From Haloferacaceae archaeon (GTDB taxonomy: Archaea; Halobacteriota; Halobacteria; Halobacteriales; Haloferacaceae), in assembly GCA_042216495.1 (NCBI GenBank), contig JBDGTU010000022.1:1208-65207 (forward strand): a stretch of DNA of 64,000 nt, written 5' to 3'. The position numbers were made by a program, and so were the translations under genes. Each line of letters starts with the position of its first letter. Within the stretch, counting starts at the first letter, position 1. Below, piece by piece: positions 13,351 to 38,048 of the stretch. The notes beneath the pieces were generated by a model. That model was given only the letters and a program-made list of their open reading frames with translations. It did not search any database and was not told the origin of the DNA.

Positions 13351-13393
13351 ATGCCCGGATTCGCGAACCAGGGGTTAAATGTAGTCCTCCGGT

Positions 13394-13407
13394 TCTCAAC
13401 TTTGAGA
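13394..13407. promoter_or_regulatory. Motility-cluster palindrome TCTCA-ACTT-TGAGA centred between the divergent hemAT and cheB TATA boxes
   Basis: TTAA 13375-13378 (minus-strand TATA core) and TTAT 13423-13426 (plus-strand core) each lie 15 nt from the motif. Confidence 0.7.
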
Positions 13408-13540
13408 CTATCGTCGGAGTCTTTATTTCGGTCGTTTCGAAACCAGTGTTTGAAGAAATGACCGGAGTTGCCCCCCGGCGTCGGCAAGGGTCGTCCGAGG
13501 GCGCGAGAGTCGAGACACCGACGACGGCGGTAGCACAGGG

Positions 13541-14587
13541 ATGACCGGCGCGACGCGTGCAGTCGTCGTCGACGACTCGCACTTCATGCGGACGGTCGTC
13601 TCCGACATCCTCGAGGACGGTGGCATCGACGTGGTCGCGACGGCGAGCGACGGCGCGGAGGCCGTCGACGCCGTCGCCGAACACGCCCCCGACGTCGTCA
13701 CCATGGACGTCGAGATGCCGAACGTGAACGGCATCGAGGCCGTCGAGCGCATCATGGCCGACCGGCCGACGCCGGTCCTCATGCTGAGCGCCCACACCGA
13801 CGACGGGGCCGACGTCACCTTCGAAGCCCTGGAGAAGGGCGCAGTCGACTTCTTCACCAAACCCGGGGGAGAGGTGTCGACGAAGATGTCGACGATGGAG
13901 GACCAGTTGGTCCGGAAGGTGAAGTCGGTGGCCGGTGCGACCGTCTCCGGGACCACCCGGCAACCGTCGACGGAGACGACACGCCGCGACGGCTACGACG
14001 AGAACGTCACCGTCGTCGTCGCGTCCTCGACGGGCGGTCCGACCGTCGTCGAAGAGGTCGTCGGGTCGCTCCCTCTCGAAGCGAATCTCCGGGTGTTCGT
14101 GGTACAGCACATGCCGAACGGATTCACCGGCCGGTTCGCCGACCGCCTCGACGCGGCCAGCGAGTACGCGGTCCGCGAGGCGAGCGACGGCGACCGCGTC
14201 AGCGGCGGGGAGATACTCGTCGCCGCCGGCGGCACCCACCTGTCCATCTCGGGCTACGCCCGGGGACGGGCCCGCGTCAAACTGACGGACGACCCGCCGG
14301 TACACGGCGTCCGGCCCGCGGCCGACGTGACGATGCAGTCGGCGGCCGAGCAGATCGACGACCCGCTCGTCGGCGTCGTCCTCACCGGGATGGGTGGAGA
14401 CGGTGCCGCCGGCGTCGAGGAAATCGGCCGCGCCGGCGGTCACGTCGTCGCACAGGACGAAGACACGTCGGCCGTGTTCGGGATGCCGAAACGGGCCATC
14501 GAGACCGGCTACGTCGACGACGTGCGGCCGGTCGGGGAGATTCCCGACGCGATTCTCGACTCCATCGAACGGGAGGCTACCGTATGA
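13541..14587 (+). CDS. cheB: Chemotaxis methylesterase CheB
   Basis: Receiver domain (VVDDS, MDVEMP) plus esterase motifs SSTGG, QHMP, RPAAD, LTGMGGDG and FGMP. Confidence 0.97.
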   Translation: MTGATRAVVVDDSHFMRTVVSDILEDGGIDVVATASDGAEAVDAVAEHAPDVVTMDVEMPNVNGIEAVERIMADRPTPVLMLSAHTDDGADVTFEALEKGAVDFFTKPGGEVSTKMSTMEDQLVRKVKSVAGATVSGTTRQPSTETTRRDGYDENVTVVVASSTGGPTVVEEVVGSLPLEANLRVFVVQHMPNGFTGRFADRLDAASEYAVREASDGDRVSGGEILVAAGGTHLSISGYARGRARVKLTDDPPVHGVRPAADVTMQSAAEQIDDPLVGVVLTGMGGDGAAGVEEIGRAGGHVVAQDEDTSAVFGMPKRAIETGYVDDVRPVGEIPDAILDSIEREATV

Positions 14588-16611
14588 ACGACGACTACCT
14601 ACAGGCGTTTATCCGCGAGAGCGAAGAGCAGTTGACCGACCTGAACAACTCGTTGCTCGCCCTCGAATCCGAACCGGACGACAGGGAGGCGATGGGCAAC
14701 ATCTTCCGCACCGCACACACGCTCAAAGGCAACTTCGGTGCGATGGGTTTCGACACCATCAGCGACCTGGCCCACGCCATCGAGGACCTGCTGGACGAGA
14801 TCCGGTCCGGGAACGTCGAAGTGACGCCCGAGATCATGGACCTCGTGTTCGCCGGCGTCGACCAGATCGAGGTCGCCCTCGACGAAATCGAAGCGGAGGG
14901 CGAGGCGAGCGTCGACCCCAGCGACCTCGAAGACGAGATTCGACAGGTCATCGAGGAAGAGGCCGGCGGCGAGACCGCAGACGGCGACGGAGCAGACGGC
15001 GACCCCACGAACGGAGCGGCCGACGCCGGCGAGGGCGTCTACCGCGCTCGGGTCGACGTCGGCGACCCCGAGATGAAGGGCGTCGACGGGATGCTCGTCC
15101 TCGACGCGGTCCGCGAGGAGTTCGACCTCGTCGACGCCGACCCGAGCGCGGACGCCATCGAGGACGGCGAGTACGAGGCGTCCTTCGACCTCTACGTCAG
15201 TGCCGAGAGCGACGAAGCGGTGTCGGCGACGCTGGCGGACGTGACCGCCGTCGAGAGCGCGGCTGTCGCTGTCGCGGACGACGGTGACGCCGCCGCGACC
15301 CCCGACGAGAGGGAAGCGTCCCCGGCCGCCGCCGACGAGAGCGAGAGCGCCCGGACCGCTGAGGCTACCGACGACGATTCCACCGACCACTCGACCGACG
15401 ACCACTCGACCGCCGACGATTCGGCCGACGGGAGCGAGTCGAGTTCGACCACGTCGCCGTCCTCGGCCTCGTCGACCAAGGAGATCAGTTCGGTCCGCGT
15501 CGACGTCGACCAACTCGACGACCTGCACGGGCTGGTCGAGCAACTGGTGACGAGTCGCATCAAGCTTCGGCGGGCCGTCGAGGAGGGGGACATCGCGACC
15601 GCCACGGACAATCTCAGCGAACTCGACAAGATTACGGCGAACCTCCAGAACACGGTCATGGACGTGCGGCTGATACCGATGAAGAAGGTCATCAGCAAGT
15701 TCCCGCGTCTGGTCCGTGACCTGGCCCGCGAACAGGACAAGGAGATCGACTTTTCGATGGAGGGACAGGACATCGAACTCGACCGGACCATCCTGACCGA
15801 GATCAGCGACCCGCTGATGCACATCCTCCGGAACGCCGTCGACCACGGCATCGAACCGCCGGCGGAGCGAGCGGAGTCAGGGAAACCCCGCGAGGGGACG
15901 ATAGAACTCCGGGCGACTCGCGAACGCGACCACGTCACGGTCGAGGTCGAGGACGACGGCCGCGGCCTCGACGTCGAGCGACTCCGGGAGGAGGCCCTCG
16001 AACGGGGCGTCCGCTCGGCGGCCGAGCTGGACGCGATGGAGGATTCGGAGGTGTACGACCTCGTCTTCCACCCGGGGTTCTCCACCGCCGACGAAGTGAC
16101 CGACGTGAGCGGTCGCGGGGTCGGGATGGACGTCGTTCACAGCACGGTCAAACAGCTCGACGGCTCGGTGAGCGTCGAGAGCGAACTCGGGGAGGGGACG
16201 ACCGTGAGCCTCCGCCTCCCGGTGACGGTGGCCATCGTGAAGGTCCTGTTCGTCGAAGTCGGCGACGAGGAGTTCGGCGTCCCCATCAAGAACGTCGACG
16301 AGGTGAGCCGCGAGGGGCGGTTCGAGACCATCAGCGAACGGGCGGTCATCGAACACGACGACGACATCTACCAGGTCATCGACCTCGCGGAGGTCCTCGA
16401 CGTGCCCGGCGACACCGAGGAGGACGGCATGCTCCTGCGCATCCGCAAGTCGGAGCGGGCCGTCGCGCTGCGCTGCGACTCGGTGAACAAACAGGAAGAG
16501 GTCGTCGTCAAACCCCTGGAAGGCATCCTCAGCGGCATCCCCGGACTCAGCGGGACGGCCGTCCTCGGTGACGGGAACATCGTCCCCATCCTCGACGTGG
16601 TGACGCTCTGA
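14584..16611 (+). CDS. cheA: Chemotaxis histidine kinase CheA
   Basis: Hpt FRTAHTLKG, P2, acidic linker, SVRVD dimerisation domain, HILRNAVDHGIE, DDGRG, SGRGVGMDVV, CheW-like P5. Confidence 0.98.
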   Translation: MNDDYLQAFIRESEEQLTDLNNSLLALESEPDDREAMGNIFRTAHTLKGNFGAMGFDTISDLAHAIEDLLDEIRSGNVEVTPEIMDLVFAGVDQIEVALDEIEAEGEASVDPSDLEDEIRQVIEEEAGGETADGDGADGDPTNGAADAGEGVYRARVDVGDPEMKGVDGMLVLDAVREEFDLVDADPSADAIEDGEYEASFDLYVSAESDEAVSATLADVTAVESAAVAVADDGDAAATPDEREASPAAADESESARTAEATDDDSTDHSTDDHSTADDSADGSESSSTTSPSSASSTKEISSVRVDVDQLDDLHGLVEQLVTSRIKLRRAVEEGDIATATDNLSELDKITANLQNTVMDVRLIPMKKVISKFPRLVRDLAREQDKEIDFSMEGQDIELDRTILTEISDPLMHILRNAVDHGIEPPAERAESGKPREGTIELRATRERDHVTVEVEDDGRGLDVERLREEALERGVRSAAELDAMEDSEVYDLVFHPGFSTADEVTDVSGRGVGMDVVHSTVKQLDGSVSVESELGEGTTVSLRLPVTVAIVKVLFVEVGDEEFGVPIKNVDEVSREGRFETISERAVIEHDDDIYQVIDLAEVLDVPGDTEEDGMLLRIRKSERAVALRCDSVNKQEEVVVKPLEGILSGIPGLSGTAVLGDGNIVPILDVVTL

Positions 16612-16613
16612 CC

Positions 16614-17426
16614 ATGACCGAAACGACCGGCTCGGACGGGTTCGACCGACTCCTCGCCCACATCGAGGACAACCTGGCGTTCGAGTCCTCCCACTACAAC
16701 GACGCCTACCTCGACCGGCGCATCTCGGCACGAATGCGCCGGCGGGGCGCCGACACCTACGGCGAGTATCTCGACCTGTTGCGCGCGGACGACGACGAAC
16801 CCGAGGCGCTCCTCGACTCGCTCAGTATCAACGTCACGGGCTTTTTCCGCAATCCGGAGGTGTGGACGGAGATACGGGACCTCCTGCGGGAACTCACGGC
16901 GTCGGGGCGGACGCGGGTGTGGAGCGCCCCCTGTTCGGACGGGCGGGAGCCCTACTCGCTGGCGATGCTCGCCCTCGACGACGACGAGATTCGGACGCGA
17001 CGGCTGGAGATCGTCGGCAGCGACATCAACGAGGACGTCCTCGACCGGGCCCGGAACGGCGTCTACCAGACCACCCGAACGACGGACATCGAGGCCGAAC
17101 TCGAACCGCTGTCGGACGCCTCGGCGTACGTCGACCGCGAGGAGGACAGCTTCGAGGTCGTACAGTCGGTCAAGGACCTCGTCACGTTCCGCCAGCACGA
17201 CCTCATCCGCGACGACCCGGAGACGGGAATGGACCTCGTGCTCTGTCGCAACCTCCTCATCTACATCAACTCGGCCTCCAAACGCTCCGTCGTCGAGACG
17301 GTCGTCTCGTCGCTGGAGGCGGGCGGCTACCTCGTCGTCGGCATGACCGAGACGCTCCCGCGGGAGTGTAAGTCGAGCGTGACGCCGGTGAACAAACGAC
17401 GCCGCGTCTACCGCAAGGTCGACTGA
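16614..17426 (+). CDS. cheR: Chemotaxis methyltransferase CheR
   Basis: INVTGFFRN, VWSAPCSDGREPYS, GSDI, CRNLLIY, GGYLVVG. Confidence 0.97.
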   Translation: MTETTGSDGFDRLLAHIEDNLAFESSHYNDAYLDRRISARMRRRGADTYGEYLDLLRADDDEPEALLDSLSINVTGFFRNPEVWTEIRDLLRELTASGRTRVWSAPCSDGREPYSLAMLALDDDEIRTRRLEIVGSDINEDVLDRARNGVYQTTRTTDIEAELEPLSDASAYVDREEDSFEVVQSVKDLVTFRQHDLIRDDPETGMDLVLCRNLLIYINSASKRSVVETVVSSLEAGGYLVVGMTETLPRECKSSVTPVNKRRRVYRKVD

Positions 17427-18643
17427 TGTCCCTCTATCAACTCGAGAAGGACGGCGACGCCGAGGCCCTCATCGACTACCTCCTCGGCGGAGAGACGGCC
17501 GCAATCCGCAGGCGGGCGGCCGAGGTGCTCGGCGACCTCGAAGCCGACGACCCGCAGGTCGTCGAGAAACTCGTCCGCGCGGCGACCGACGACGACGACG
17601 AGGCGGTCCGGGGGGCGGCCATCGACGCGCTCGACCGAATCGGCCAAGACGCCATCGAGCAACTCATCGTCAGCCTCTCGGGACAGGACGTCGAGGCGGG
17701 CGCGGACTGGATGCGTGCACGGGCGTTCGTGAAGACGCTCTCGGCCGACCGCCCGGAACTCCGGATGGCGTCGGCCAACGCGCTCGGCCGCCTCGGCGAC
17801 GAAGACGCCGTCCCGGCCCTCGTCGAGTCACTCACCGACCCGGACCCGCGGGTCCGAGAGCGCGTCGCCCGCGCCTGCGGCAAACTCGGCGACCCGCGGG
17901 CCGTCGACGCCCTCCGCGAACGGGTCGACGGCGACGAGCGACGGGTTCGACAGGCCGCGGCGGACGCGCTGGCGGCCATCGGGTCGAAGCGCGCGCTCGC
18001 CGCCCTCCTGGACCGGGTCGAGGACGACAGCCCCGAAGTCAGGTACGTCGCGGCGTCGGCGCTGGGCGACTACGGCGGCCCGAAACCCATCGACGCCCTC
18101 GTCGAGACGCTCGGCGACGAGAACGACGCTGTCCGGCGGGCCGCGGTCTACTCCATCGTGGAACTCCTGTCGAACGCCCCGGCGGAGCGGAGCCACGAGA
18201 TACGACAGACGGTGGTCGACAGACTCGGCGAAACCGCCGGCGGGAGCGTCGTCGAATCGCTGGTCGAACTCGTCGAAGAGGGGCGACAGACGGCCCAGCG
18301 GCGCAACGCCGCGTGGCTACTCGGCCGCACCGTCGGCGAGACACACCGGAGTCGCGCCGTCGACGCGCTCGTCTCGGCGCTCGGCGACGACGACGAGATG
18401 ACTGCACAGTTCGCGGCGACGAGCCTCGTCACTATCGGCGACGACGACGTTACCGACGCGTTGCTGGACCTGTTGGAGGACCCCGAATCGGACCAGGCCG
18501 CCGCCAAGGCGGTGTTCGTCCTCGGGAAAGTGGGCGACGCTCGCGCCCGGGAGAGACTCGAATCGCTCGTCGAATCGACCGAGGACCCGGAGGTGCGAAA
18601 GCAGGCGTTCTCGGCACTCTCGAAACTCGGTGGCAAACGATGA
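17426..18643 (+). CDS. HEAT/PBS-lyase repeat protein of haloarchaeal che clusters
   Basis: Many VR..AA.ALG repeats. Sits between cheR and cheF, as is usual in haloarchaea. Confidence 0.9.
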   Translation: MSLYQLEKDGDAEALIDYLLGGETAAIRRRAAEVLGDLEADDPQVVEKLVRAATDDDDEAVRGAAIDALDRIGQDAIEQLIVSLSGQDVEAGADWMRARAFVKTLSADRPELRMASANALGRLGDEDAVPALVESLTDPDPRVRERVARACGKLGDPRAVDALRERVDGDERRVRQAAADALAAIGSKRALAALLDRVEDDSPEVRYVAASALGDYGGPKPIDALVETLGDENDAVRRAAVYSIVELLSNAPAERSHEIRQTVVDRLGETAGGSVVESLVELVEEGRQTAQRRNAAWLLGRTVGETHRSRAVDALVSALGDDDEMTAQFAATSLVTIGDDDVTDALLDLLEDPESDQAAAKAVFVLGKVGDARARERLESLVESTEDPEVRKQAFSALSKLGGKR

Positions 18644-18656
18644 CCGACATCCGACG

Positions 18657-19523
18657 ATGAGCGACGGCGAACACAAGATAGCGGACACTCGCGGACGGTT
18701 CGTACAGGTCGTTCGAAACGGTCGGAAGCTACAGGACGCGGGCTGGAACAGCGGCCGCATCGTCCTCTCGAACAAGCGGCTCGTCCTCGTCAGTAACGAC
18801 GGGAAGCGTACCGTCTCCCTCTCGAACGTCGTTCGCCTCGACGGCCGCTACGACGTCAACCAACTCGTCGCGAGCGTCTCGGGCTACGTCAGCCTCTACC
18901 TCTCCGACGAGGACGTCCTGCTGGTCGCGCCGGACGACGTCGACACCTTCGAGGCGGCGCTCTATCGCGCGTTGCTCGACCGGGCCGTCGTCCTCGTGCG
19001 TCACCCGGCCGTGGAGGGCGGCGTCGTCCAGGACACCGAGTGGGTGAAGTCCCGCGTCAAAATCGAGGAGGATGCCGTCTCGGTGGCGATGTCCGACGGC
19101 TCCTTCGTCGAAATATCGCTCGACGACATCGGGTCGCTGGAGCGAAACGAGCGCACCGTCCGGGACGGGAAACGGCCGGTCCTCGAAGCCGAACACACCG
19201 AAGACGGGACCAGCGTCCAGACCTACATCTCGGGCGGGAGCCGTCACGTCGCCTTTCTCGAATCGCTCCTGCAGAAAGGCGTCGAGGAGAGCGAGATCGG
19301 CGTCGAGCTATCGAGCAAGGAAAACGAGGTGTTGATGGCGCTCTACTCCGGCGTCTCGCCGTTCGAAATCCCCGAGTTCGTCGGGATGGACGTCGACGAA
19401 GTCGAGGAGACGTTCGAGCACCTGGTCGAACTCGGCGTCCTCGAAGAGGTGCGCAAGCGCCGCGAGGTGACGCTCAACGCCCGCGGTCGCAACATCGCCA
19501 GCACCGCGATGAACGACCAGTAG
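18657..19523 (+). CDS. cheF1: Archaeal chemotaxis-motor adaptor CheF
   Basis: GRIVLSNKRLVL, HPAVEGGVVQD and a C-terminal wHTH (LMALYSGVSPFEIPEF). Start at ATG 18657. Confidence 0.92.
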   Translation: MSDGEHKIADTRGRFVQVVRNGRKLQDAGWNSGRIVLSNKRLVLVSNDGKRTVSLSNVVRLDGRYDVNQLVASVSGYVSLYLSDEDVLLVAPDDVDTFEAALYRALLDRAVVLVRHPAVEGGVVQDTEWVKSRVKIEEDAVSVAMSDGSFVEISLDDIGSLERNERTVRDGKRPVLEAEHTEDGTSVQTYISGGSRHVAFLESLLQKGVEESEIGVELSSKENEVLMALYSGVSPFEIPEFVGMDVDEVEETFEHLVELGVLEEVRKRREVTLNARGRNIASTAMNDQ

Positions 19524-19760: not shown

Positions 19761-20639
19761 TCAGTTGATGTCTTCGAGGCGGTCGGTGATGACGACGCGT
19801 CCTTTCGGCGTCAGCGACGTCTCCTGTTCGCCGTCGACGACCAGGCCCTTCTCCCGCAGCGAGTTCAACACCATCGTCGTCCGACTCGGGTCGGCCGTGA
19901 CGAGTTCGGTCGGGTCGGCCGCCTCGCCCGCGGAGTAGAGGCCGACGAGCACCTGCAACTCCTCGTCGGTGAGCGAGATGTCCTCGAGTTCCTCCATCAG
20001 GTCGCTGTACTCCAGGCGGAGATACCGGCCGAGGAGGTTCATCTTCCGCTGGGTCGGGAGGATGACGTCCGTGACGACCGACGTCGTCGACGGGAGGTGC
20101 CGGACTTCGAGCGTCGGCCGGGACTTCCCGCCGAGGGTCCGCGACGTCTTCGAGATTTCGGTGACCGTCCCCAGGTCGATTTCGAACGGCGAGGGGAGTT
20201 CGGCGAAGACCATCCGCCCGCGTTTCACGCGGAGTTTGCCGAGTCGCGTCGGCGTGTCGAGGACGCGGCCACCCCGCCGCGCCGGGTGTTTGACCGTCGC
20301 CTCGATGCCGTTCAACTGCGCTTTGAAGAGTATCGTCGTGAACTTGTCGACGGTGTCGGACCCCGCTTCGACGACCGCGAACCGTCGCGTGTCGCCCCGT
20401 TCGTACGCGATTGTGACGGAGTCGTTGAAGAACTCGCGCATCTCCGGCGGGACGTGACCCACGGCGACGTCGAAGATGGACGACATCGGGATGGTCGTCT
20501 TGTCGTCGCTACCGGCGAGGACGAGTCGGCGCGAACTCATGAGGATTCGCCCGCTGGAGGGTTCGGTCGCTCCCGTTCCGGTAACGAAAAACTCCCCCAC
20601 GAAGTCGACGAGAATCCGCTCTCCGTCCCGGTTAGACAT
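19761..20639 (-). CDS. cheF2: CheF paralog
   Basis: GRILMSSRRLVLA, KHPARRGGRV and a C-terminal wHTH. Coupled to the end of flaJ. Confidence 0.88.
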   Translation of the reverse strand: MSNRDGERILVDFVGEFFVTGTGATEPSSGRILMSSRRLVLAGSDDKTTIPMSSIFDVAVGHVPPEMREFFNDSVTIAYERGDTRRFAVVEAGSDTVDKFTTILFKAQLNGIEATVKHPARRGGRVLDTPTRLGKLRVKRGRMVFAELPSPFEIDLGTVTEISKTSRTLGGKSRPTLEVRHLPSTTSVVTDVILPTQRKMNLLGRYLRLEYSDLMEELEDISLTDEELQVLVGLYSAGEAADPTELVTADPSRTTMVLNSLREKGLVVDGEQETSLTPKGRVVITDRLEDIN

Positions 20640-22380
20640 TCAGTAATCCCTCCACCATGACTTGCGTGACGACGCCGATGATACTACCCAGCCACGTCAA
20701 CGCGACGAAGTGAGACAGGGCGTTCAGCTTGTGTCCGCCGTCGATGGTCCGTATCATCAACGACGACGACAGGGCGTTGAACAGGATGACCGTGACGAGC
20801 AGGAACTGGATGAGCGGGAGGTCGTACACCTGCGTGTGGATGAGCCGTCCGGCGTCGAACGTACTCGACGAGCCACCGAGACCGAGCGAGAGGTCGGCGA
20901 GAATCTTCACGATGGTGAAGCCGATGAAGAACGCGAACGTCGACGCGGCGGTGATACCGTAGAGCAACCCCACGAGCTGGGTCGTCGCCTGCTTGCGCTG
21001 CTGGCGTAACTGATTGACCGTGTTCATGTTCTCGCTGATGAGTTCGCCGAGTTGCTTCGGTTCGCCGCCCATCTGTCGGCCGGTGAGGTACATCTCGCTG
21101 AACTTCTGGATGAGGTACGACTGCGTACTCGCGTTGAAATACTCCCAGGCCCGCGCCGGTTCGATGCGCATGTTGAGGCGCTTGAACAGGTCGTCGATCT
21201 CCTCGGTGAGCGGACCGAAGTCCTTGTTTCGGAGCGTCCGCAGCACCTCGGTCGTGGTCGTCTGTTTCGCGCTCTCGCTGGCACCGAGCGCGCGGATGAA
21301 TCCCGGGAAGTCCTCGTCGCAGGCGATGATTTCCTTCTCGCGCCGTCGGAAGACGTAGCCCGGAATCAACAGCGGCGTGAACGGGATGGCGGCGTAGATA
21401 GGTTTCGGAACCGGGTCCAACGGAATGACGGCGGCGAGGTCTATCGGGCCGCCGAAGAGGCTACTGGCCACGAGGAGAATCAAGACGAGCGAGAGGACGC
21501 CACCGGCGACGACGCTCGCCTGCATTCGTCGCTCGTCCGGCGGGGTGATGTCTTCGGGGAAGTACCAGACGGGGTCGAACGGTGCCATCATCCGGATGAC
21601 GAGCAGGAAGCCGATCTGAATGAGCACGAACAGGACGATGACGCCGCTGATGGTCATCGTCGGATTCGTCCCCGTCAGGATGGGCAGGACGATGGCGAAG
21701 ACGAGCGCGAACGTCATCGAGAGAATCATCGACAGGTAGAGGTCCTTCATCACTTCGAGGTTGTCGAGGGCGCTCTCGTAGACGGTGACGTAGTTTTGCA
21801 GCATGACCTGCTGTTCGCTCAAGAGGAAGTCGCTCAGTTCCTGCCCGGCACCGAGCGTGTACGCGAGTCGGTCGAAGAAGTCGGCGACGGCGTCGCTCGA
21901 CACCTGTTTGGCGCGTCGCCGGCAGGCGTCGTCGAGGCTCTGGTTCCACGTGTCGACGAGCTGGACGATGCGGTTCAGCTCCTCCGCCATCGGGCCGTAC
22001 TCGCGTTCCGTCGCGAGTTCCCGGAACACTTCCATGCGGTCGATGTTCGTCGTCGAGAGCACCGTCATGTGGGTCATCATCAGGTGGTACTGGTTTTCCA
22101 TCCGAATCCGTTCCTGACTGACGACGAGTTGGGGATAGAAGACGGCCGACCCGACAGCGAGCACGCCGAGCAACGGTATCGGAAGCCGAACGAACACCGG
22201 CAAGGGGAGCACCAGCGCGCCCAGAATCGTCAGCGCGAAAAACGCGGCCGCCGGGACGAGGACGAGGAGGACGTACCGCCGAATCGGCATATCGAACTGC
22301 TCGTAGGCGCTGAGCAACGAGGTGGCCAGTTCGGACGTGGAGACGTCGACCTCCGCCTTCGAGGTTTGTTCCGAAGGCAT
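20632..22380 (-). CDS. flaJ: Archaellum membrane platform protein ArlJ/FlaJ
   Basis: Polytopic membrane protein with THMTVLSTTNIDR, two cytoplasmic T2SS-F-like domains and a DGGH motif. Confidence 0.96.
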   Translation of the reverse strand: MPSEQTSKAEVDVSTSELATSLLSAYEQFDMPIRRYVLLVLVPAAAFFALTILGALVLPLPVFVRLPIPLLGVLAVGSAVFYPQLVVSQERIRMENQYHLMMTHMTVLSTTNIDRMEVFRELATEREYGPMAEELNRIVQLVDTWNQSLDDACRRRAKQVSSDAVADFFDRLAYTLGAGQELSDFLLSEQQVMLQNYVTVYESALDNLEVMKDLYLSMILSMTFALVFAIVLPILTGTNPTMTISGVIVLFVLIQIGFLLVIRMMAPFDPVWYFPEDITPPDERRMQASVVAGGVLSLVLILLVASSLFGGPIDLAAVIPLDPVPKPIYAAIPFTPLLIPGYVFRRREKEIIACDEDFPGFIRALGASESAKQTTTTEVLRTLRNKDFGPLTEEIDDLFKRLNMRIEPARAWEYFNASTQSYLIQKFSEMYLTGRQMGGEPKQLGELISENMNTVNQLRQQRKQATTQLVGLLYGITAASTFAFFIGFTIVKILADLSLGLGGSSSTFDAGRLIHTQVYDLPLIQFLLVTVILFNALSSSLMIRTIDGGHKLNALSHFVALTWLGSIIGVVTQVMVEGLLNV

Positions 22381-22381
22381 G

Positions 22382-24046: not shown

Positions 24047-24052
24047 GACCAG

Positions 24053-27685: not shown

Positions 27686-28908
27686 TCCGAGAAGAGCGAC
27701 TCCGGATCCGGCTCCGTCTGGTCGCGCCGCTCGACCAGGAGGGAGTCGAGCGCCTCCTTCAGTTTCCCCTCGTCCGGGATGGCGTATATCTCACACTGGA
27801 AGGCGTCGTCGTCGGTTCTCACCGCCGAGTCCATGAGGAACGCGTACTCCTGGGATTGGCCGAGGCGGCCGGCGATGGGGCTGAGTATCGACGCGCCCAG
27901 GTCGTGGACGAGTTCCGGCGGCGTGTGGTCGATGCTCGTCTGCAGGACGTTCGCCCAGCCGTCGATGAAGCCGCTGGTCATGATGTTACCGATCTCCTGA
28001 ATCGCGCTCTCGCCCATCTCGCCGATACCGTCGCCCTCCGTCTCCATCGGAACGAGCGCGTCCACGACCGTCTGAGCGGACGGTTCGTCGAACAGGATGG
28101 CGAGGTAGCCGCCGGGCGTCCCCTTGAACTCCATGACGACGCCCACGTACGACGTGTCGTCGACGGTGTTGGGCACGTCCTCGATCGGCACGAACGTGAG
28201 CCGACTGACGTCGACTTCCGTCTCGATTCCCGTCATCGAGGAGATGTTGCCCGCCGCCTGCGACGCGCCCTGCCGCGTCATCTCGTTGAACACGGTCAGT
28301 TTCTCCAGGGGCACCGCGTCGTCGGCGTCCTGTGCTTCCAGCATCTCCACGAGGGCGGCGTACTCCGGCAGCATGTAGATGTAGGCGTCGATCTCTTCGT
28401 CGACGGCCGTCATCTGACTCTGGATGACGAAGACGTGGTCGGATTCGGCGCGATCGAGCGACCCGTCCGGGAGCACGGAGGTACCGGTGCCTTCGACGTA
28501 CGCCGGCGGCGTGATGTCTATCTGCGTGTCGAGGTAGTCGGCCCAGCCGTCGACGAAGCCGCCGACCATGATGTTTCCGACTTCCTCGACGCCGCTCCGG
28601 GCCATCCCCTCGAACGACTCGCCACTGCTCGCGCCGGGGACGAGCACGTCGACGATAGTGCTGGCGCTCTCGCGGTCGAACGCCAGCGCCGTCTCCCCCG
28701 CGAGCCCGCCGTCGAAGCCGATCTGGACGCCGACGAACTCACGGCCGCCGAAGGCGTCGTCGAGGTCCGACGGCGACATGAGCGTGATGTTCGTCACGTC
28801 GACGTACGTCTCGATGCCGGTCATCTGCGTGAGCGACGCCGCCGCGTGTTCGGCCCCCTCCTGTGCGAGTCGGTTGAACGTGCCCAACGACTGAATATCG
28901 ACTTTCAT
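27682..28908 (-). CDS. cheC: CheC phosphatase (two-domain)
   Basis: Start at ATG 28908. Duplicated CheC domain with E-(V/I)-GN-I motifs (EEVGNIM, QEIGNIM). Confidence 0.94.
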   Translation of the reverse strand: MKVDIQSLGTFNRLAQEGAEHAAASLTQMTGIETYVDVTNITLMSPSDLDDAFGGREFVGVQIGFDGGLAGETALAFDRESASTIVDVLVPGASSGESFEGMARSGVEEVGNIMVGGFVDGWADYLDTQIDITPPAYVEGTGTSVLPDGSLDRAESDHVFVIQSQMTAVDEEIDAYIYMLPEYAALVEMLEAQDADDAVPLEKLTVFNEMTRQGASQAAGNISSMTGIETEVDVSRLTFVPIEDVPNTVDDTSYVGVVMEFKGTPGGYLAILFDEPSAQTVVDALVPMETEGDGIGEMGESAIQEIGNIMTSGFIDGWANVLQTSIDHTPPELVHDLGASILSPIAGRLGQSQEYAFLMDSAVRTDDDAFQCEIYAIPDEGKLKEALDSLLVERRDQTEPDPESLFSE

Positions 28909-28910
28909 CG

Positions 28911-29270
28911 TCAGGCCACGACGTCGTTTATGGCTTCGAGGACGCTCGGTTTCTGGAAGGGCTTCGTGATGTAACCGGAGGCACCGGCTTTGACGGCCAT
29001 CTTCATCTTCTCTTCCTGGCCGACGCTCGTACACATGATGACGTTCGCGTCGGGGTCGTTGTCGGTGATCTCCGTGGTCGCCTCGATGCCGTCCCGGATC
29101 GGCATGACGATGTCCATCATCACGAGGTCGGGGTCGTGTTCCTCGTAGAGGTCGACGGCCTCGACGCCGTTCTCCCCCTCCCCGACGATCTCGAAGTCCT
29201 CCTCCAGGATTTCACGGAGGAGGTTCCGCATGAAATCCGAATCGTCTACGATGAGTACACGTGTCGCCAT
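28911..29270 (-). CDS. cheY: Chemotaxis response regulator CheY
   Basis: Stand-alone receiver domain: IVDDS, MMDIVMP, CTSVGQ, ITKPF. Confidence 0.97.
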   Translation of the reverse strand: MATRVLIVDDSDFMRNLLREILEEDFEIVGEGENGVEAVDLYEEHDPDLVMMDIVMPIRDGIEATTEITDNDPDANVIMCTSVGQEEKMKMAVKAGASGYITKPFQKPSVLEAINDVVA

Positions 29271-29320: not shown

Positions 29321-29334
29321 TATCACCGTTGATA
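29321..29334. promoter_or_regulatory. Palindrome TATCA-CCGT-TGATA upstream of cheY-cheC-cheD
   Basis: Perfect half-sites, 15 nt from the ATAA core at 29302-29305. Confidence 0.75.
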
Positions 29335-30045: not shown

Positions 30046-30627
30046 TTACTGTAGCGTGACGGCTTCGCCGCTGGGTGGAATCGGATTCGGTGCGCTCACG
30101 GCGATGGTCGTGGTGCCGCCCTGGGCGGTGTTCAGTTTGATGGTGACCTCCTCGCCGGCGCTCAGCACGCCGTAGCCGGATAGCGTCGTCAGATCAATCG
30201 TGATCTTCGTGCGCGCGGTGTCGCTACTGAGCAGGTTCGCGCCGTTCGAACCCTTGACCTGTGTAAGGCTGACGCCACCCGCGTTGTTGATTTTGCTCGT
30301 GACTTCCCCTTGCTGGCCAGTGATTTGCATCGTCACGTCGTTGAGGTTGATGGTATCGGCTCCGGGAGAGCGGCCGACGACGATGTTGAGCGTCGTGATA
30401 CTGGAACCGTCCGACGTGCCTGTCACGGAGATGGTGTTCAGCGTCTGGGTGACCTGTTGACTCGACTGCTGGCCGGTGTCCTGTGCGGATTGCTGGAGGA
30501 AGCCGGCGGTGTTGATGAGGACGCCGGCGGCGATGGCGGCGACCAGGACCATCGCGATGAACACGATGAGCGTCCCGATCCCCACCTGCCCGCGGTCGTC
30601 GTCCGTCGTGAAGAGATTAGCTAGCAT
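30046..30627 (-). CDS. Archaellin (third of three)
   Basis: Class III signal peptide RG|[32 protein letters not shown], then SPGA..I.L. Confidence 0.96.
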
Positions 30628-31249
30628 GGATTACACCTCCTGGATGTATTCGCCGTTGCTCGCCTGACTCAGTGGCGTCGGGGCGTTGATCTGGACGGTC
30701 GTCGTGCCGCCGCTCGGCACCGAAATCGTCAGGGTGACTTGTTCCCCCGCTGCAATCGTCTGCTGTGCCCCGCTACCTATCGAGAACGAGACGAGGATGA
30801 CCGCTTTGTCTGAAGACTGCTGGAGCGTCTTCGAGGTCGTGCCGAACGAAGGGCCGGAGCCGATCTTCGCGCCTAGTTCGTAGTAGCCAGCGTTAGTGGT
30901 GTCGTCGATAGCTGCATTCGTATCAGAGCCATTACCGACGTAACTCAGCACGCCTTCGCCGTTCGGCCCACTCACCGTGATGGTGAGGTCGGCGAGGTTG
31001 ATCGGGTTCGCCCCCGGCGACCGCGACACGGTGAGCCGGACGGTTTTGAGGTTTCCGGAACCGTCGGCGACGCCGACTTCGTTCACTGCCTGGATGGTGT
31101 TACTGACCTGCTCGCTGCTCTGTTGGCCGGTCTCCTGGCTCTGTTGCTGGAGGAAGCCGGCGGTGTTGATGAGGACGCCGGCGGCGATGGCGGCGACCAG
31201 GACCATCGCGATGAACACGATGAGCGTCCCGATCCCCACCTGCCCGCGG
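30490..31249. repeat. 106-bp identical direct repeat in the 5' regions of archaellin genes 2 and 3
   Basis: 30490-30595 is identical to 31144-31249, including synonymous sites. The copy in the first gene (about 31745-31845) has many synonymous changes. Confidence 0.9.
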
Positions 31250-31290
31250 GTCGTCTGGCGTTCGTCTGGAGTGAGGTATTCTTCGAACAT
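30631..31290 (-). CDS. Archaellin (second of three)
   Basis: RG|[24 protein letters not shown], then SPGANPINL. Confidence 0.96.
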   Translation of the reverse strand: MFEEYLTPDERQTTRGQVGIGTLIVFIAMVLVAAIAAGVLINTAGFLQQQSQETGQQSSEQVSNTIQAVNEVGVADGSGNLKTVRLTVSRSPGANPINLADLTITVSGPNGEGVLSYVGNGSDTNAAIDDTTNAGYYELGAKIGSGPSFGTTSKTLQQSSDKAVILVSFSIGSGAQQTIAAGEQVTLTISVPSGGTTTVQINAPTPLSQASNGEYIQEV

Positions 31291-31298
31291 CGTTCTGA

Positions 31299-31868
31299 TT
31301 AGACGCGGACCGCCTCGCCGTCGTTCTTGTCCGACAGCGGCGACGGTGCTTCGATCACCACGGTGGTCGTCGCCCCCGAGGCAGTGATAATTTTCAGCTC
31401 ACCCTCCTTACCGGGGGAAAGCTGCGTGCCCGGATTCTGTGCGAGCGTGATGGTGATGACCGCGCGGTCCTTGGCCACCTGAAGCGTACTGATGCCACCG
31501 CCGGACGGGTCGGTGATGGTTATCCCGGTACCCGCACCTTCGACCGCGAAGCGGTTGGTGCCTTGCGTGTACTCGAACGTCGTCTTCGAGAGGTCGATGG
31601 GGTCAGCACCCGGACTCTTCTTGACGAGTAGTTTTATCTTGCCGACGGTGTTGTTCCCTCCGTCGACGAGGCCCGTTTCACTGACCACGGTCAGCGAGTT
31701 ACTGACCTCCTCCGATGCTTGTTGACCAGTCGATTGCGACTGTTGTTGCAGGAAGCCCGCCGTGTTGATCAGGACCCCGGCCGCGATTGCGGCGACCAGG
31801 ACCATCGCGATGAACACGATGAGGGTCCCGATACCGACCTGCCCCCTGTCTGAATCTTTCTCGAACAT
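31299..31868 (-). CDS. Archaellin (first of three)
   Basis: RG|[24 protein letters not shown], then SPGADPIDL. Confidence 0.96.
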   Translation of the reverse strand: MFEKDSDRGQVGIGTLIVFIAMVLVAAIAAGVLINTAGFLQQQSQSTGQQASEEVSNSLTVVSETGLVDGGNNTVGKIKLLVKKSPGADPIDLSKTTFEYTQGTNRFAVEGAGTGITITDPSGGGISTLQVAKDRAVITITLAQNPGTQLSPGKEGELKIITASGATTTVVIEAPSPLSDKNDGEAVRV

Positions 31869-31951: not shown

Positions 31952-31965
31952 TATCACTCGTGAAA
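31952..31965. promoter_or_regulatory. Palindrome variant TATCA-CTCG-TGAAA upstream of the archaellin operon
   Basis: One mismatch, 15 nt from the TTAA core at 31933-31936. Confidence 0.7.
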
Positions 31966-32014: not shown

Positions 32015-32296
32015 TCACTCGTAGATGACGAGGCTGTAGACGACGGCGATGAATCCGAGCGAGGAGAAGCCGCTGTTGACCAGTAGCAGCGACCGGACTT
32101 CGCTGAATCCGGTGAGGAACGCACTGAGTACGGTCGCGATCGTCGCGGCGGCGATCAGTGAGAACCCGACGGACACGAATATCATCGACCGACGCTGGGT
32201 GCGGACGTACGCCTGTACCGCCATACCGACCATCGTGAGGCCGGAGACGACCAGTATGGCGCTGAAGACCACGTAGAGTGATACGATGACGCTCAT
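32015..32296 (-). CDS. Small 3-TM membrane protein of haloarchaeal motility clusters
   Basis: 93 aa, three hydrophobic helices, AY.RT.R.SM..VSVGF pattern. Has its own promoter and palindrome. Confidence 0.75.
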   Translation of the reverse strand: MSVIVSLYVVFSAILVVSGLTMVGMAVQAYVRTQRRSMIFVSVGFSLIAAATIATVLSAFLTGFSEVRSLLLVNSGFSSLGFIAVVYSLVIYE

Positions 32297-32349: not shown

Positions 32350-32363
32350 TATCAACCGTGATA
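32350..32363. promoter_or_regulatory. Palindrome TATCA-ACCG-TGATA upstream of the small membrane protein gene
   Basis: Perfect half-sites, 15 nt from the ATAA core at 32331-32334. Confidence 0.75.
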
Positions 32364-32413
32364 TTCGCCGTCGCAATCCCCAGTAATCGCCAATACTTTT
32401 ATCACACCCAAAC

Positions 32414-32427
32414 TATCTTTACTGATA
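32414..32427. promoter_or_regulatory. Palindrome variant TATCT-TTAC-TGATA between the TATA box and the ATG of the wHTH regulator (repressor position)
   Basis: TTTTAT at 32397-32402, motif at 32414-32427, ATG at 32432. Confidence 0.65.
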
Positions 32428-32431
32428 ACCG

Positions 32432-32770
32432 ATGGAGGGGGAAGAGTTGCTTCAGGTGCTGGGTAACGAGTACAACGCCGACATCCTCGGGTCGACGCAC
32501 GAACCGCGGTCCGCACAGGAACTGAGCGACGAACTCGACGTGCCCATCGCGACCTGCTATCGACGAATCGAGGAGTTGACCGACGCGAATCTGCTCCAAC
32601 ACCACGACCGGGTCCTCTCCGACGAACGGCGACGCGTCAACGTCTACCGCCGCGACGTCGACGAGGTTCGAATCGAGTTCGGCGAGGACTCCTACTCGGT
32701 CGAAGTGGAAGAACGGACGCGCGTGAAAAACACGCTCGACGAAGCGTGGCGGACGCTCTCGAAGGGATAG
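32432..32770 (+). CDS. Winged-helix (ArsR-like) transcription regulator of the archaellum cluster
   Basis: SAQELSDELDVPIATCYRRIEEL HTH followed by a beta-wing. Confidence 0.88.
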   Translation: MEGEELLQVLGNEYNADILGSTHEPRSAQELSDELDVPIATCYRRIEELTDANLLQHHDRVLSDERRRVNVYRRDVDEVRIEFGEDSYSVEVEERTRVKNTLDEAWRTLSKG

Positions 32771-33496
32771 TTACGGCAGCGACGACCCCTGGTCCATCAT
32801 CGAGAAGCCGGCGGCCCGTTCGTGGACGGTGATGCCCCCCTCACTGATCTCCATCGGGAAGATGTCCGTCTCGATGTTCTGCTTTCGCATCTTGGCGACC
32901 CAGATGTACCGGTTGACGCCCGATTCGGTCGGCGTCTGAATCAGATAGATGTTCCCGTCTGTGAGGAAGTTCTCCAGGCCGATGTCGGTCTCGGGAAACA
33001 CTGCCGCCTGTTCGTTGATGAGGAGCGACGTGAGTCCGTTCCCCTTGAGGATGTCGGAGAACTTGAGCAGGTACGTGCGTTTCTCCTTCTCCGTCTCGAA
33101 AAACAGCTCGAACATCGTGAGCGAATCCAGAACGAGGCGCTCGTACTCCGTCTCCTCGAACGCCTCCAGCAGTCGGTCGAGCGTCTCGCCGAAGTCGCCG
33201 TCGCCGAGCAGTTCGCGCTTGTCGTAGACGAGGATGTCGCCGTCGTCGACGAGCGCCTCCCACTCGTCGAAGCCAATCGATTCGGCTGCCTGTTGGATGT
33301 CCGATGCGTTCTCCTCGAACGAGAGGTAGATTCCCTTCTCGTCGAACTCCCGAACGCCGTTGTAGATGAACTGGAGGCCGAGAATGCTCTTTCCGGTTCC
33401 GGGGTTCCCGCTGACGAGAACCGTCGCGTCTTCGACGATTCCGCCGTCGAGTATCGAATCGAGACCGTCGATTCCCGTCTTCGTCAGCTCGGTCAT
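32771..33496 (-). CDS. KaiC/RAD55-family ATPase (CirA-like)
   Basis: TGIDGLD..L.GG, GNPGTGKS, SFEE, LVLDS, KMR. Confidence 0.92.
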   Translation of the reverse strand: MTELTKTGIDGLDSILDGGIVEDATVLVSGNPGTGKSILGLQFIYNGVREFDEKGIYLSFEENASDIQQAAESIGFDEWEALVDDGDILVYDKRELLGDGDFGETLDRLLEAFEETEYERLVLDSLTMFELFFETEKEKRTYLLKFSDILKGNGLTSLLINEQAAVFPETDIGLENFLTDGNIYLIQTPTESGVNRYIWVAKMRKQNIETDIFPMEISEGGITVHERAAGFSMMDQGSSLP

Positions 33497-33577: not shown

Positions 33578-33591
33578 TCTCAGAGCTGAGA
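33578..33591. promoter_or_regulatory. Palindrome TCTCA-GAGC-TGAGA (within GTTCTCAG-AG-CTGAGAAC) upstream of the second KaiC-like gene
   Basis: Same variant as the 13394 site. TATA-like TGTATTT at 33604-33610, ATG at 33636. Confidence 0.6.
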
Positions 33592-33635
33592 ACTCGGTCG
33601 AAATGTATTTGCCCCTCCTCGAACCCAGTACGCCA

Positions 33636-34340
33636 ATGAGAGTTTCGACCGGTATCCCCCGCTTCGACTCGCTGGTCGACGGCGGCCTCCTCGAGAACCG
33701 GCTGTACGTCCTGAGCGGTCCCCCCGGGAGCGGCAAGACGACGTTCTCCGCGCACTTCGTGACCGAGGGCGCACTGGCGGGCGAGCGGTGTCTCTTCTTG
33801 AGCATGCACGAGGCAAAGTCCGAGTTGACACACGACATGAGCGGGTACGAGTTCGGCTTCGACCGGGCCATCGAATCGTCGAATCTCGAGTTCCTGAACG
33901 TCTTCGACGCGAACACGAAGCGACTGCTCGGCGGCGGCGACAACGCCGACTTCGCGACCGGGGTCAAGAATATGACCAACCGCCTCGTCTCGTTTATCAA
34001 CTCACGCGGCATCGACCGCCTCGTCATCGATTCGACGATGATTCTCCAGTACTTCTTCCCGGACAACGACGAGGCGTTCATCCAGTTTCTCACCTCGCTG
34101 AAACGCATCGACGCGACGACGCTCCTGATATCGGAGATGACCGACCCGAGTTCCTACGCCGACGAACATTACATCTCACACGGCGTCGTCTTCCTCCACA
34201 ACTACCTGGAGTCGACGGGGATGACCCGGGGCATACAGATCATCAAGATGCGCGGGACGAACATCGACAGCGACATCCGCGAGGTGGAGTTCACCGACGA
34301 CGGCCTCCAAGTGTTCCCCGACCGGAAACTGCAGGGTTGA
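33636..34340 (+). CDS. KaiC/RAD55-family ATPase
   Basis: Start reassigned to ATG 33636. STGIPRFD..V.GG, GPPGSGKT, LVIDS, IKMRG. Confidence 0.92.
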   Translation: MRVSTGIPRFDSLVDGGLLENRLYVLSGPPGSGKTTFSAHFVTEGALAGERCLFLSMHEAKSELTHDMSGYEFGFDRAIESSNLEFLNVFDANTKRLLGGGDNADFATGVKNMTNRLVSFINSRGIDRLVIDSTMILQYFFPDNDEAFIQFLTSLKRIDATTLLISEMTDPSSYADEHYISHGVVFLHNYLESTGMTRGIQIIKMRGTNIDSDIREVEFTDDGLQVFPDRKLQG

Positions 34341-36223: not shown

Positions 36224-37093
36224 CTACTCCTGCATCACGCGGTCGGGTGCCGTCCAGATGACGAACCCGTCCTCCTCGTCTCGCCTGACGATGCCGTTTA
36301 TCCACGGCTCCTCGACCGGCGACGGCGTGACGTCGGCCTCGGAAACGTGTGTCACCCGGCGGACGTCGTCGACGGCCCAGCCGACCTCCCAGTCGTCTTC
36401 CATACTGTCCGCGTCGAAGACGATTATCAGGTCACCCTCACGGTCGGAGTCGGTGTCGAGGGCGCGTTTCGGGTCGATGACCGTCGTGATGCTCCCGCGG
36501 AGGTCGATGACGCCCTCCACCTCGTCGGGGGCGTTGGGGACGCGCGTTATCGACCCGCGCTCGACTATCTGTTCGATGTAGGTGATGTCGAGACAGTACC
36601 GCTCGTCGCCGAGGTCGAATTCGAGAACCGCCGTCTCTTCGCCCCGTTCGTCGTCTTTCCCCTCGTCTACCCCGTCGCCGTCGTCGGTCACCGCCTCCTC
36701 GACGAACGCGTCGACGACGTCTCCGTCGGCCGCGTCCTCGAACGCGTCCGCGGCGGTGTCGTCGTCGAACACCTCGCGAGCGTCCGAAATCGCGGACGCC
36801 GACTCGGCTGCGGCAACTGCCGCCGTCGCGCCGTCGCCGGCGGCGGTGGCAGTGGCTCCACCGTCACCGTCGTCGGCGGATGAGGAGTCGTCGGTCGCGG
36901 TGTCGTCGGTCGCGGTGTCGTCGTCGGACGAAGTTTCGACGGCGGACGTCCCGTCGGTGGCGGACATCTCGTCGTCGTCGGTCGGCCCGTCAGTGGCGTC
37001 GGTCGACGCGTCGTCTCCCCCGTTGCTCTGTCGCCCCTCGCGCATTCGCTGAATGCGCTCCGTCCGTTCGGTCCGGTCGCGGTCGGACGTCAT
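36224..37093 (-). CDS. cheW: CheW with a long acidic N-terminal extension
   Basis: Start reassigned to ATG 37093 (ATGA overlap with the parA stop). About 150 aa extension, then LEFDLGDERYC, VPNAP..VEGVIDLRG, GWAVDDV. Confidence 0.92.
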   Translation of the reverse strand: MTSDRDRTERTERIQRMREGRQSNGGDDASTDATDGPTDDDEMSATDGTSAVETSSDDDTATDDTATDDSSSADDGDGGATATAAGDGATAAVAAAESASAISDAREVFDDDTAADAFEDAADGDVVDAFVEEAVTDDGDGVDEGKDDERGEETAVLEFDLGDERYCLDITYIEQIVERGSITRVPNAPDEVEGVIDLRGSITTVIDPKRALDTDSDREGDLIIVFDADSMEDDWEVGWAVDDVRRVTHVSEADVTPSPVEEPWINGIVRRDEEDGFVIWTAPDRVMQE

Positions 37094-37989
37094 GCCGTCA
37101 CCTCCGTCCGACCGAACTGACGGTCGAGTTCGGCTGCGATGTCCGCGAACGGTTCGGTCACGTCGAGAGAATCGTCGTACTCGAAGATGGAGACGCCGGC
37201 CGAGAACGCCCGCTGGAGGGCGACGCGCTTTCTGACCTCCCAGACGGGCACGTCGGCGAACACCTCCTCGAACCACGCGAGCATCGACTCGTCCTCGTTG
37301 GTCGTCTCGACGCGGTTGGCGACGACGCCCAGGTCGCGGACGGTGATGCCGGTCTCCCGTTCGAGTGCCCCCAACTGGTCGAACAGGAGTTCCATCGCGC
37401 GCTCCGACGTCGCCTCGGTCAGTGCGGGGACGAGGATGTTCGCCGCCGCGTAGATGCCCGTGTCGGTGAGTTTTCCGTAGAACGGCGGCGAGTCGATGAC
37501 GACGTAGTCGTAGGTCGCCTCCAGGGCGCCGAGTGCCAGTTCGAGTCGGTCGGCGGCGTAGTCGCTCTCGGGGTCCGCCGTCGCGTTGATGGCGAGTGGC
37601 TCCAGAGTCGACGGGTCACCGTCGACGTCGGGGTTGCGCCGCATCCGCGCCATCAGGTCCGCGACGGTCAGTTCGTGTTCGGCCTGGAGGAGGTCGACGG
37701 AACTCGGGACGAGGTCCATCTCGGGGTGGGAGACGACGATGTCGTTTATCGCGTCCCGTCGCCCGGGGTCGGTGACGACGTCGAACAGCGTCGGTGGGTC
37801 GCGGTCGTAGGCGTCGAGGTGGCCGAGTCCCTCCGTCGCGTTTCCCTGGGGGTCGAGGTCGACGAACAGGACGTCGTGCCCGCGTCTGTTCAGGGCACCT
37901 GCGACGTTTATGGCCACGGTCGTCTTGCCCGTCCCACCTTTCGCGTTAGTCACGCAGATGGTGGCCCGCGTAGCTACGTCGGACGTCAT
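37090..37989 (-). CDS. ParA/Soj-family ATPase
   Basis: Start at ATG 37989. Deviant Walker A NAKGGTGKTT, DLDPQGNAT, YDYVVIDSPP. Confidence 0.93.
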   Translation of the reverse strand: MTSDVATRATICVTNAKGGTGKTTVAINVAGALNRRGHDVLFVDLDPQGNATEGLGHLDAYDRDPPTLFDVVTDPGRRDAINDIVVSHPEMDLVPSSVDLLQAEHELTVADLMARMRRNPDVDGDPSTLEPLAINATADPESDYAADRLELALGALEATYDYVVIDSPPFYGKLTDTGIYAAANILVPALTEATSERAMELLFDQLGALERETGITVRDLGVVANRVETTNEDESMLAWFEEVFADVPVWEVRKRVALQRAFSAGVSIFEYDDSLDVTEPFADIAAELDRQFGRTEVTA

Positions 37990-38034
37990 TTGTCGCGGAT
38001 TCTCCCCACCGGAACATAAAAGCGGGCGTCCAGT

Positions 38035-38048
38035 TATCAAGACCAATA
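38035..38048. promoter_or_regulatory. Degenerate palindrome TATCA-AGAC-CAATA upstream of parA-cheW
   Basis: Promoter-proximal half is perfect. 15 nt from the ATAA core at 38016-38019. Confidence 0.6.

What the first reader, a model, noticed from the sequence alone, without database searches (positions are those of the whole stretch)
13375..38048. Motility regulon: T(A/C)TCA-N4-TGA(T/G)A at a fixed 15-nt distance from TATA boxes
Seen: the palindrome occurs at 13394 (hemAT/cheB), 27154 (flaCE operon), 29321 (cheY-C-D), 31952 (archaellins), 32350 (small membrane gene), 32414 (wHTH), 33578 (KaiC-like) and 38035 (parA-cheW). For seven promoters the gap between the 4-nt TATA core (TTAA/ATAA/TTAT) and the motif is exactly 15 nt; 33578 fits approximately. 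I saw no full copy in intergenic regions outside the cluster. Established: archaeal activators bind just upstream of BRE/TATA at constrained spacing to recruit TBP/TFB. Inference: one dimeric activator co-ordinates chemotaxis, motor, filament, KaiC-like and array-positioning genes. A wHTH motility regulator has, to my recollection, been reported in Haloferax volcanii (CsmR), so novelty of the motif must be checked.
Basis: partly seen in the sequence, partly recalled or inferred. Interest (0 to 1): 0.88.

Follow-up and report, generated by a model that had tools for sequence, protein, structure and literature searches.

The report
CsmR motility regulon in another haloarchaeon
A DNA palindrome sits exactly 15 bases before the TATA box of seven swimming and chemotaxis promoters in this salt-loving archaeon; it matches the already published binding site of the regulator CsmR, whose counterpart is encoded in the same gene cluster and likely controls these genes, so the finding is real but mostly known.

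Summary
Five exact boxes lie in the window (0.06 expected), and seven promoters have a TATA core exactly 15 nt after the box. It is not new: Nussbaum et al. 2026 (PMC13286277) report TATCA(N4)TGATA as the ChIP-seq motif of Haloferax volcanii CsmR, inside a 34-bp motif that ends at the TATA box. The window's wHTH (32432-32770) is the CsmR orthologue (62% identity, same length, reciprocal best hit). Six of the eight target promoters have counterparts with published peaks.

'Activator' is not established, because deleting csmR raises target transcripts.

Additions from this work: (1) box+15+TATA occurs in 204 of 257 Halobacteria genomes with a csmR hit and 4 of 43 without. (2) The 32414 box breaks the rule. 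It lies between csmR's own TATA and start codon, a repressor position seen at 16 of 41 csmR starts and 0 of 53 target promoters, so autorepression is likely in some lineages; it is absent at the studied csmR. (3) parA-cheW and a DUF7521 gene are likely extra targets. (4) A CsmR-CirA complex gets only weak modelling support. Low interest.

The parts
13394..13407 (.). CsmR box (exact), bidirectional: TATA core 15 nt away on both sides (hemAT at 13375-13378 minus; cheB operon at 13423-13426 plus)
   Evidence: the cheB-side box in G028 also has a core at 15 nt in both orientations
11881..13350 (-). hemAT (protoglobin + MCP), likely target
   Evidence: Pfam; both best G028 hits lie beside published peaks
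13541..19523 (+). cheB-cheA-cheR-HEAT-cheF1 operon, likely target
19761..27070 (-). arlCE-F-G-H-I-J-cheF2 motor operon, likely target
27154..27167 (.). CsmR box (exact); TATA core 27135-27138 on minus strand
27179..29270 (-). cheY-cheC-cheD, likely target
   Evidence: box+15+TATA at 14 of 15 cheY starts in related loci
29321..29334 (.). CsmR box (exact); TATA core 29302-29305 on minus strand
30046..31868 (-). three archaellin genes, likely target
31952..31965 (.). CsmR box (1 mismatch); TATA core 31933-31936 on minus strand
32015..32296 (-). DUF7521 small protein, likely target; not found in G028 with this query
   Evidence: box+15+TATA at 16 of 28 related starts
32350..32363 (.). CsmR box (exact); TATA core 32331-32334 on minus strand
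32397..32402 (+). predicted TATA box of csmR
   Evidence: sequence; same position in orthologues
32414..32427 (.). CsmR box (1 mismatch) between csmR's TATA and start codon (-18 to -5): predicted autorepression operator
32432..32770 (+). csmR orthologue, 112-aa winged-helix protein (P0001)
32771..33496 (-). cirA orthologue (KaiC-like), tail to tail with csmR; no box in its own orientation
   Evidence: 69% to the matching G028 gene; box+15+TATA at 0 of 30 related starts
33578..33591 (.). CsmR box (exact); weak TATA core at 33607-33610 on plus strand
33636..34340 (+). cirD orthologue (KaiC-like), likely target
   Evidence: 56% to its best G028 hit, which starts where the published cirD peak table places that gene
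36224..37989 (-). parA/minD-like ATPase and cheW, likely target; no full-length parA counterpart found in G028
38035..38048 (.). degenerate CsmR box (2 mismatches); TATA core 38016-38019 on minus strand, 30 nt before the parA ATG

Best explanation
These palindromes match the published CsmR binding site, and the CsmR orthologue encoded at 32432-32770 likely binds them as a dimer to switch the archaellum, chemotaxis, cirD and parA-cheW promoters together. Shown here: the boxes, the 15-nt gap, the orthology and the conservation. Shown in H. volcanii only: binding by ChIP-seq. Inferred: the 15-nt gap places the dimer just upstream of the BRE, where archaeal factors contact TFB or TBP. The sign of control is inferred. 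I favour (about 0.45) a DNA-anchored switch: CsmR holds the promoters down when the KaiC-like CirA acts on it and permits or stimulates them otherwise. That would explain why loss of either gene raises the same transcripts. The box at 32414 lies over csmR's own predicted start region, so it likely makes CsmR repress its own gene in this lineage (about 0.6). The confidence given is for the identity of box, regulator and regulon.
For: Motif identity: TATCA(N4)TGATA in 50 of 65 ChIP peaks, within a ~34-bp motif that reaches the TATA box (PMC13286277; S10 and S12 tables). Orthology: P0001 is 62% identical over 111 aa to P0122 from G028. P0122 begins and ends with the residues encoded by the published csmR cloning primers, and the two are reciprocal best hits. 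In the 40-kb G028 region, six oriented boxes have TTAA/TTAT at exactly 15 nt. Six of eight window promoters (hemAT, cheB, arlCE, cheY, arlA1, cirD) have G028 counterparts beside published peaks. In 44 related loci, 63 of 306 oriented boxes (<=1 mismatch) have TTAW at gap 15; the next highest gap has 7. Class-wide, the strict box+15+TTAW is in 204 of 257 genomes with a csmR hit (E<=1e-20) and 4 of 43 without; the reversed pattern hits 37 of 300 (hand tallies; arithmetic). Position rule: upstream of BRE/TATA activates, overlapping the start site represses (TrmBL1/Tgr, Ptr2, TFB-RF1, MDR1, Phr; PMC4158304 passages). CsmR targets also rise in the cirA deletion. CsmR dimer + CirA model: weak support, score 0.44 against best control 0.06. 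That mark was reached by 116 of 157 solved and 2 of 215 mismatched pairs, but at <=0.60 by only 18 solved pairs and both mismatches. Runs agree in >=80% of contacts; partner pLDDT 78.
Against: No binding, start-site or expression data exist here for this organism. 53 of 257 csmR-positive genomes have no strict match (genus g8 0 of 7, family f3 6 of 21). csmR-negative genomes may simply lack motility genes (not tested), and kin are not independent, so co-occurrence does not isolate CsmR as the binder. The switch model does not explain why the csmR deletion is non-motile despite more transcript. The own-promoter box is missing in G028 and in 25 of 41 named-locus orthologues at <=1 mismatch; only 4 of 27 one-per-genus orthologues have it at <=1 mismatch and 11 of 27 at <=2. 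The published peak table lists no peak at csmR's own promoter.
Confidence: 0.88

Rival explanations
1. Same box and regulator, but CsmR is a plain activator that recruits TFB or TBP from the fixed distance. The rise of targets in the deletion would be indirect, through lower CirA. Confidence is for the sign only.
For: The fixed position upstream of BRE/TATA is the activator position. Overexpression increases motility and deletion abolishes it. cirA transcript falls in the csmR deletion in early and stationary phase.
Against: Motif-bearing, strand-matched direct targets are the most up-regulated genes in the deletion. cirA is unchanged at mid-exponential phase, yet the paper reports the targets up in all growth phases.
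Confidence: 0.3
2. Same box and regulator, but CsmR is a plain repressor at all sites, blocking TFB from just upstream of the BRE or excluding another activator. Confidence is for the sign only.
For: [quoted passage not shown]
Against: Overexpression makes cells hypermotile. A pure blocker would not need a one-base-precise gap: 63 boxes at gap 15 against at most 7 at any other gap.
Confidence: 0.2
3. The box in this genome is read by a different factor, such as a TrmB-family protein or the CsmR paralogue on contig C15.
For: The Thermococcales TGM (TATCAC-N5-GTGATA) shares the half-sites. A 56%-identical paralogue is in the assembly.
Against: TGM half-sites are spaced differently, and the haloarchaeal TrmB motif is unrelated. 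C15 looks mis-binned. The window protein, not the paralogue, is the best match to CsmR (141 against 112 bits).
Confidence: 0.05

Closest known systems
CsmR (HVO_1209) regulon of Haloferax volcanii (Nussbaum et al., PLoS Genet 2026, PMC13286277; preprint 10.64898/2026.02.03.703544)
   Same: Same palindrome, same placement upstream of BRE/TATA, same 15-nt gap in the matching region, orthologous 112-aa wHTH (62%), and the same target classes (archaellins, motor, cheY-C-D, cheB operon, hemAT-like transducer, cirD), with cirA nearby.
   Different: Different genus and gene order: csmR and cirA are tail to tail, and the archaellins are on the other strand. A box lies over csmR's own start region, which G028 lacks. 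parA-cheW and DUF7521 are likely extra targets with no clear counterpart in G028.
EarA of Methanococcus maripaludis and Pyrococcus furiosus
   Same: wHTH regulator binding upstream of the archaellum promoter (as described).
   Different: The paper reports no sequence or structural similarity to CsmR, and deleting earA lowers archaellin expression. Not tested here.
TrmBL1/Tgr and the Thermococcales glycolytic motif
   Same: Position-dependent sign: activation upstream of BRE/TATA, repression over the start site. Similar half-sites.
   Different: Different protein family, wider half-site spacing, and a sugar-metabolism regulon.

Membership tests
CsmR regulon | Regulator is an orthologue of HVO_1209 (small wHTH, ~13 kDa) | tested here: met
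   112 aa, HTH_20; 62% identity to P0122, whose ends match the published primers; reciprocal best hit
CsmR regulon | Gene lies next to the archaellin genes and cirA | tested here: met
   archaellins end 564 nt upstream; the cirA orthologue abuts it
CsmR regulon | Semi-palindromic TATCA(N4)TGATA box at target promoters | tested here: met
CsmR regulon | Box upstream of BRE/TATA at the spacing of the published 34-bp motif | tested here: met
   15 nt in seven window promoters and in six oriented G028 boxes
CsmR regulon | Targets are archaellum, chemotaxis and cir genes | tested here: met
   6 of 8 promoters have counterparts beside published peaks
CsmR regulon | Cell-shape genes rdfA and sph3 are in the regulon | not tested
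   not searched; the assembly is 74% complete
CsmR regulon | Protein binds the boxes in vivo, and deletion changes target expression | not testable with these tools
   shown only for H. volcanii
EarA-type activator | Homology to EarA | not tested
   the paper reports none for CsmR; no comparison run here
TrmB-family TGM regulon | TATCAC-N5-GTGATA spacing and a TrmB-family regulator | tested here: not met
   boxes have a 4-nt spacer between the 5-nt half-sites; P0001 has no TrmB Pfam hit

The most novel reading that the evidence does not exclude
CsmR is a class-wide, position-dependent switch. From a box fixed 15 nt before TATA it gates motility promoters across most Halobacteria. From a box over its own start site it represses itself in many lineages outside the one studied. 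The KaiC-like CirA docks directly on the CsmR dimer as co-repressor, which would resolve why deleting either gene raises the same transcripts.
Probability: 0.3. Interest if true: 0.5.

Novelty: new member of a known kind. Interest (0 to 1): 0.2.

Why it matters
The core claim is already in print with ChIP-seq support, so it adds little by itself. The useful extras are modest. The conserved one-base-precise gap and the two box positions (upstream of TATA at targets, over the start site at csmR) give simple reporter tests for the question the authors left open: whether CsmR activates, represses or does both. The motif can also be used to predict motility regulon members, such as scattered transducer genes, across Halobacteria.

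Tried and rejected
Chance: rejected by shuffles and gap histograms.

32414 as an eighth 15-nt site: rejected. Strays at 3433 and 43405: no TATA core at 15 nt; treated as background. C4:24235 and C31:27437 (2 mismatches) were not accepted as targets: at that stringency there are 1133 oriented sites, other gaps collect 0-4 cores each, and no short-leader gene follows C4:24235.

A true second motility cluster in this organism (C15): considered; probably mis-binned.

RNA runs for start-site mapping: none was listed. Earlier scan findings: two look-ups, nothing returned.

Literature: four full-text searches. The three CsmR or haloarchaeal-motif searches returned the paper, its preprint and one unrelated genome comparison seen only as a listing. 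'autoreg', 'own promot' and 'spacing' occur 0 times in the paper's main text, and 'autoreg' 0 times in the preprint. Autoregulation appears once, as a reviewer's request. Figures, including the motif logo and alignments, and the preprint's supplements could not be seen and may state the spacing or conservation explicitly.

I have no count of how many of the 50 published 34-mers end in a TATA core. rdfA/sph3 were not searched.

Full report
Observation. The strict palindrome occurs five times in the window against 0.06 expected, and nine times with one mismatch against 1.69. A TTAA/TTAT core lies exactly 15 nt past the box for hemAT, cheB, arlCE, cheY, arlA1, DUF7521 and parA; 33578 has ATTT there. 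Core-to-start distances are 28-38 nt for five of the eight promoters (including the ATTT core of 33578), 68 nt for two, and 118 nt for cheB. In the whole 2.37-Mb assembly (74% complete), 8 of 80 oriented boxes with <=1 mismatch have TTAW at gap 15, with at most 1 at any other gap. Of 1022 TTAW cores followed by an ORF, 8 have a box at gap 15, and one each at 14, 21 and 35. The two gap-15 sites outside the window precede a cheY on C15 and a PAS-MCP transducer on C66, so even the distant hits are chemotaxis genes.

What it is. Nussbaum et al. 2026 (PMC13286277) report TATCA(N4)TGATA in 50 of 65 CsmR ChIP-seq peaks, within a ~34-bp motif with the TATA box adjacent. I read the abstract, sections 2.1, 2.4, 2.6, 2.7, 3.2, 3.3 and 3.4, passages elsewhere, supplementary tables S3, S10 and S12, and passages of the response to reviewers; I saw no figures. 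The preprint (passages only) places the motif about 10 bases upstream of BRE and TATA. The number 15 is not spelled out in the text I read, but the S10 rows have the layout 1+14+15+4. In the matching 40-kb region of G028, six oriented boxes have TTAA/TTAT at exactly 15 nt; the arlCE box there does not.

Orthology. The window's wHTH (P0001) is 62% identical over 111 aa to P0122 from G028. P0122's ends are those encoded by the published csmR primers. P0001 is P0122's best hit in this assembly (141 bits against 112 for a paralogue), and P0122's gene is P0001's best hit in G028. The convergent KaiC gene is the cirA orthologue (69%). The KaiC gene behind 33578 is the cirD orthologue (56%). Six of the eight target promoters have G028 counterparts next to published peaks. 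parA and DUF7521 have no clear counterpart there.

Conservation. In 44 named loci around csmR relatives, 63 of 306 oriented boxes have TTAW at gap 15, the next gap has 7, and 26 of 44 loci have at least one. In 300 Halobacteria genomes, the strict box+15+TTAW is present in 208. By my hand tally against (csmR hit at E<=1e-20), that is 204 of 257 csmR-positive and 4 of 43 csmR-negative genomes; the reversed pattern hits 37 of 300. Caveats: relatives are not independent, only 15 candidates per genome were scored, loss of csmR may go with loss of motility genes (not tested), and 53 csmR-positive genomes have no strict match.

The odd site. 32414-32427 lies at -18 to -5 from the csmR start codon, downstream of its predicted TATA. 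Among 41 of 44 loci with a usable start (3 dropped for edge or no start), 16 have a box with <=1 mismatch in that zone and 21 with <=2, 15 of them at exactly -18; none has a box in the upstream position. Controls: 0 of 213 other motility-gene starts, 0 of 53 target promoters, and 1 of 869 leaderless-like starts in the assembly, which is csmR itself. In a one-per-genus set that I picked from the 150 listed best hits (skewed to close families, and overlapping the named set), the figures fall to 4 of 27 and 11 of 27. G028 has only a half-site, and the published peak table lists no peak there. Boxes overlapping the start site are the repressor position in archaea (PMC4158304, passages). Autorepression in part of the class is therefore a fair inference, untested, and an ordinary feature for a regulator.

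How it works. Binding is shown only in H. volcanii. The geometry is that of an activator, but motif-bearing targets rise when csmR is deleted, cells lose motility, and overexpression makes them hypermotile. The same targets rise when cirA is deleted. The CirA orthologue shows only ATPase-type Pfam families, so it would need a DNA-bound partner to repress. I therefore favour CsmR as a DNA-anchored switch that CirA turns to repression (about 0.45), over plain activator (0.3) and plain repressor (0.2). A model of the CsmR dimer with CirA gave weak support only: 0.44 against best control 0.06. That mark was reached by 116 of 157 solved and 2 of 215 mismatched pairs, but at <=0.60 by only 18 solved pairs and both mismatches; runs agreed in >=80% of contacts, partner pLDDT 78; my own 24-row alignments were used and no interface was given. 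A cirA orthologue lies within about 2.2 kb of csmR in 23 of 44 loci. The model does not explain the non-motile deletion phenotype.

Second cluster. Contig C15 holds another full che/arl cluster with a csmR paralogue. It is the most deviant of 48 contigs >=20 kb in tetranucleotide profile. Its flanks match the same-genus genome G304 at only 66-78% and out of order, whereas C66's flanks match at 88-90%. All 18 relatives with a match (of 20 searched) show one csmR copy at E<=1e-20. It is probably mis-binned, so I do not count its cheY box as a target of the window's CsmR.

Verdict. A correct observation of a published regulon in a new genome: a new member of a known kind, interest 0.2. The class-wide fixed spacing, the likely autorepression box and two extra targets are small additions that I did not find in four full-text searches; unseen figures and preprint supplements may bear on them.

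Noticed in passing
G000:C15:5600-35500 (parts in L046, L052): A second complete chemotaxis and archaellum cluster with its own csmR paralogue (56%), DUF7521 gene and a box+15+TATA before cheY. The contig is a composition outlier and matches the same-genus genome poorly, so it is probably mis-binned, though transfer is not excluded.
   Followed up: partly
G000:C66:4046-5560 (L048:2547-4062): A PAS-MCP transducer gene outside the cluster with a box+15+TATA. The stretch holding it lies between two segments that are adjacent in the same-genus genome G304, so it was gained here or lost there.
   Followed up: partly
G000:C54:11120 (L049): The only exact box outside the cluster lies before a CTP-dependent riboflavin kinase gene, with its TATA core at gap 21 rather than 15.
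   Followed up: no
window 13458-13544 (+): A 28-codon upstream ORF starts 35 nt after the cheB-side TATA core, and its stop codon overlaps the cheB ATG, which could couple translation of cheB.
   Followed up: no
window 38098-40870 (-): A HalOD1 gene and a cytochrome bd oxidase operon sit directly beside the motility cluster, which also contains the globin-coupled sensor hemAT.
   Followed up: no
genus g8 and family f3: Some csmR-positive lineages have few or no strict box+15+TATA matches (g8 0 of 7; f3 6 of 21), so the motif or spacing may have drifted there.
   Followed up: no
window 32770-32771: csmR and cirA end on adjacent bases, tail to tail, with no intergenic space for a terminator.
   Followed up: no
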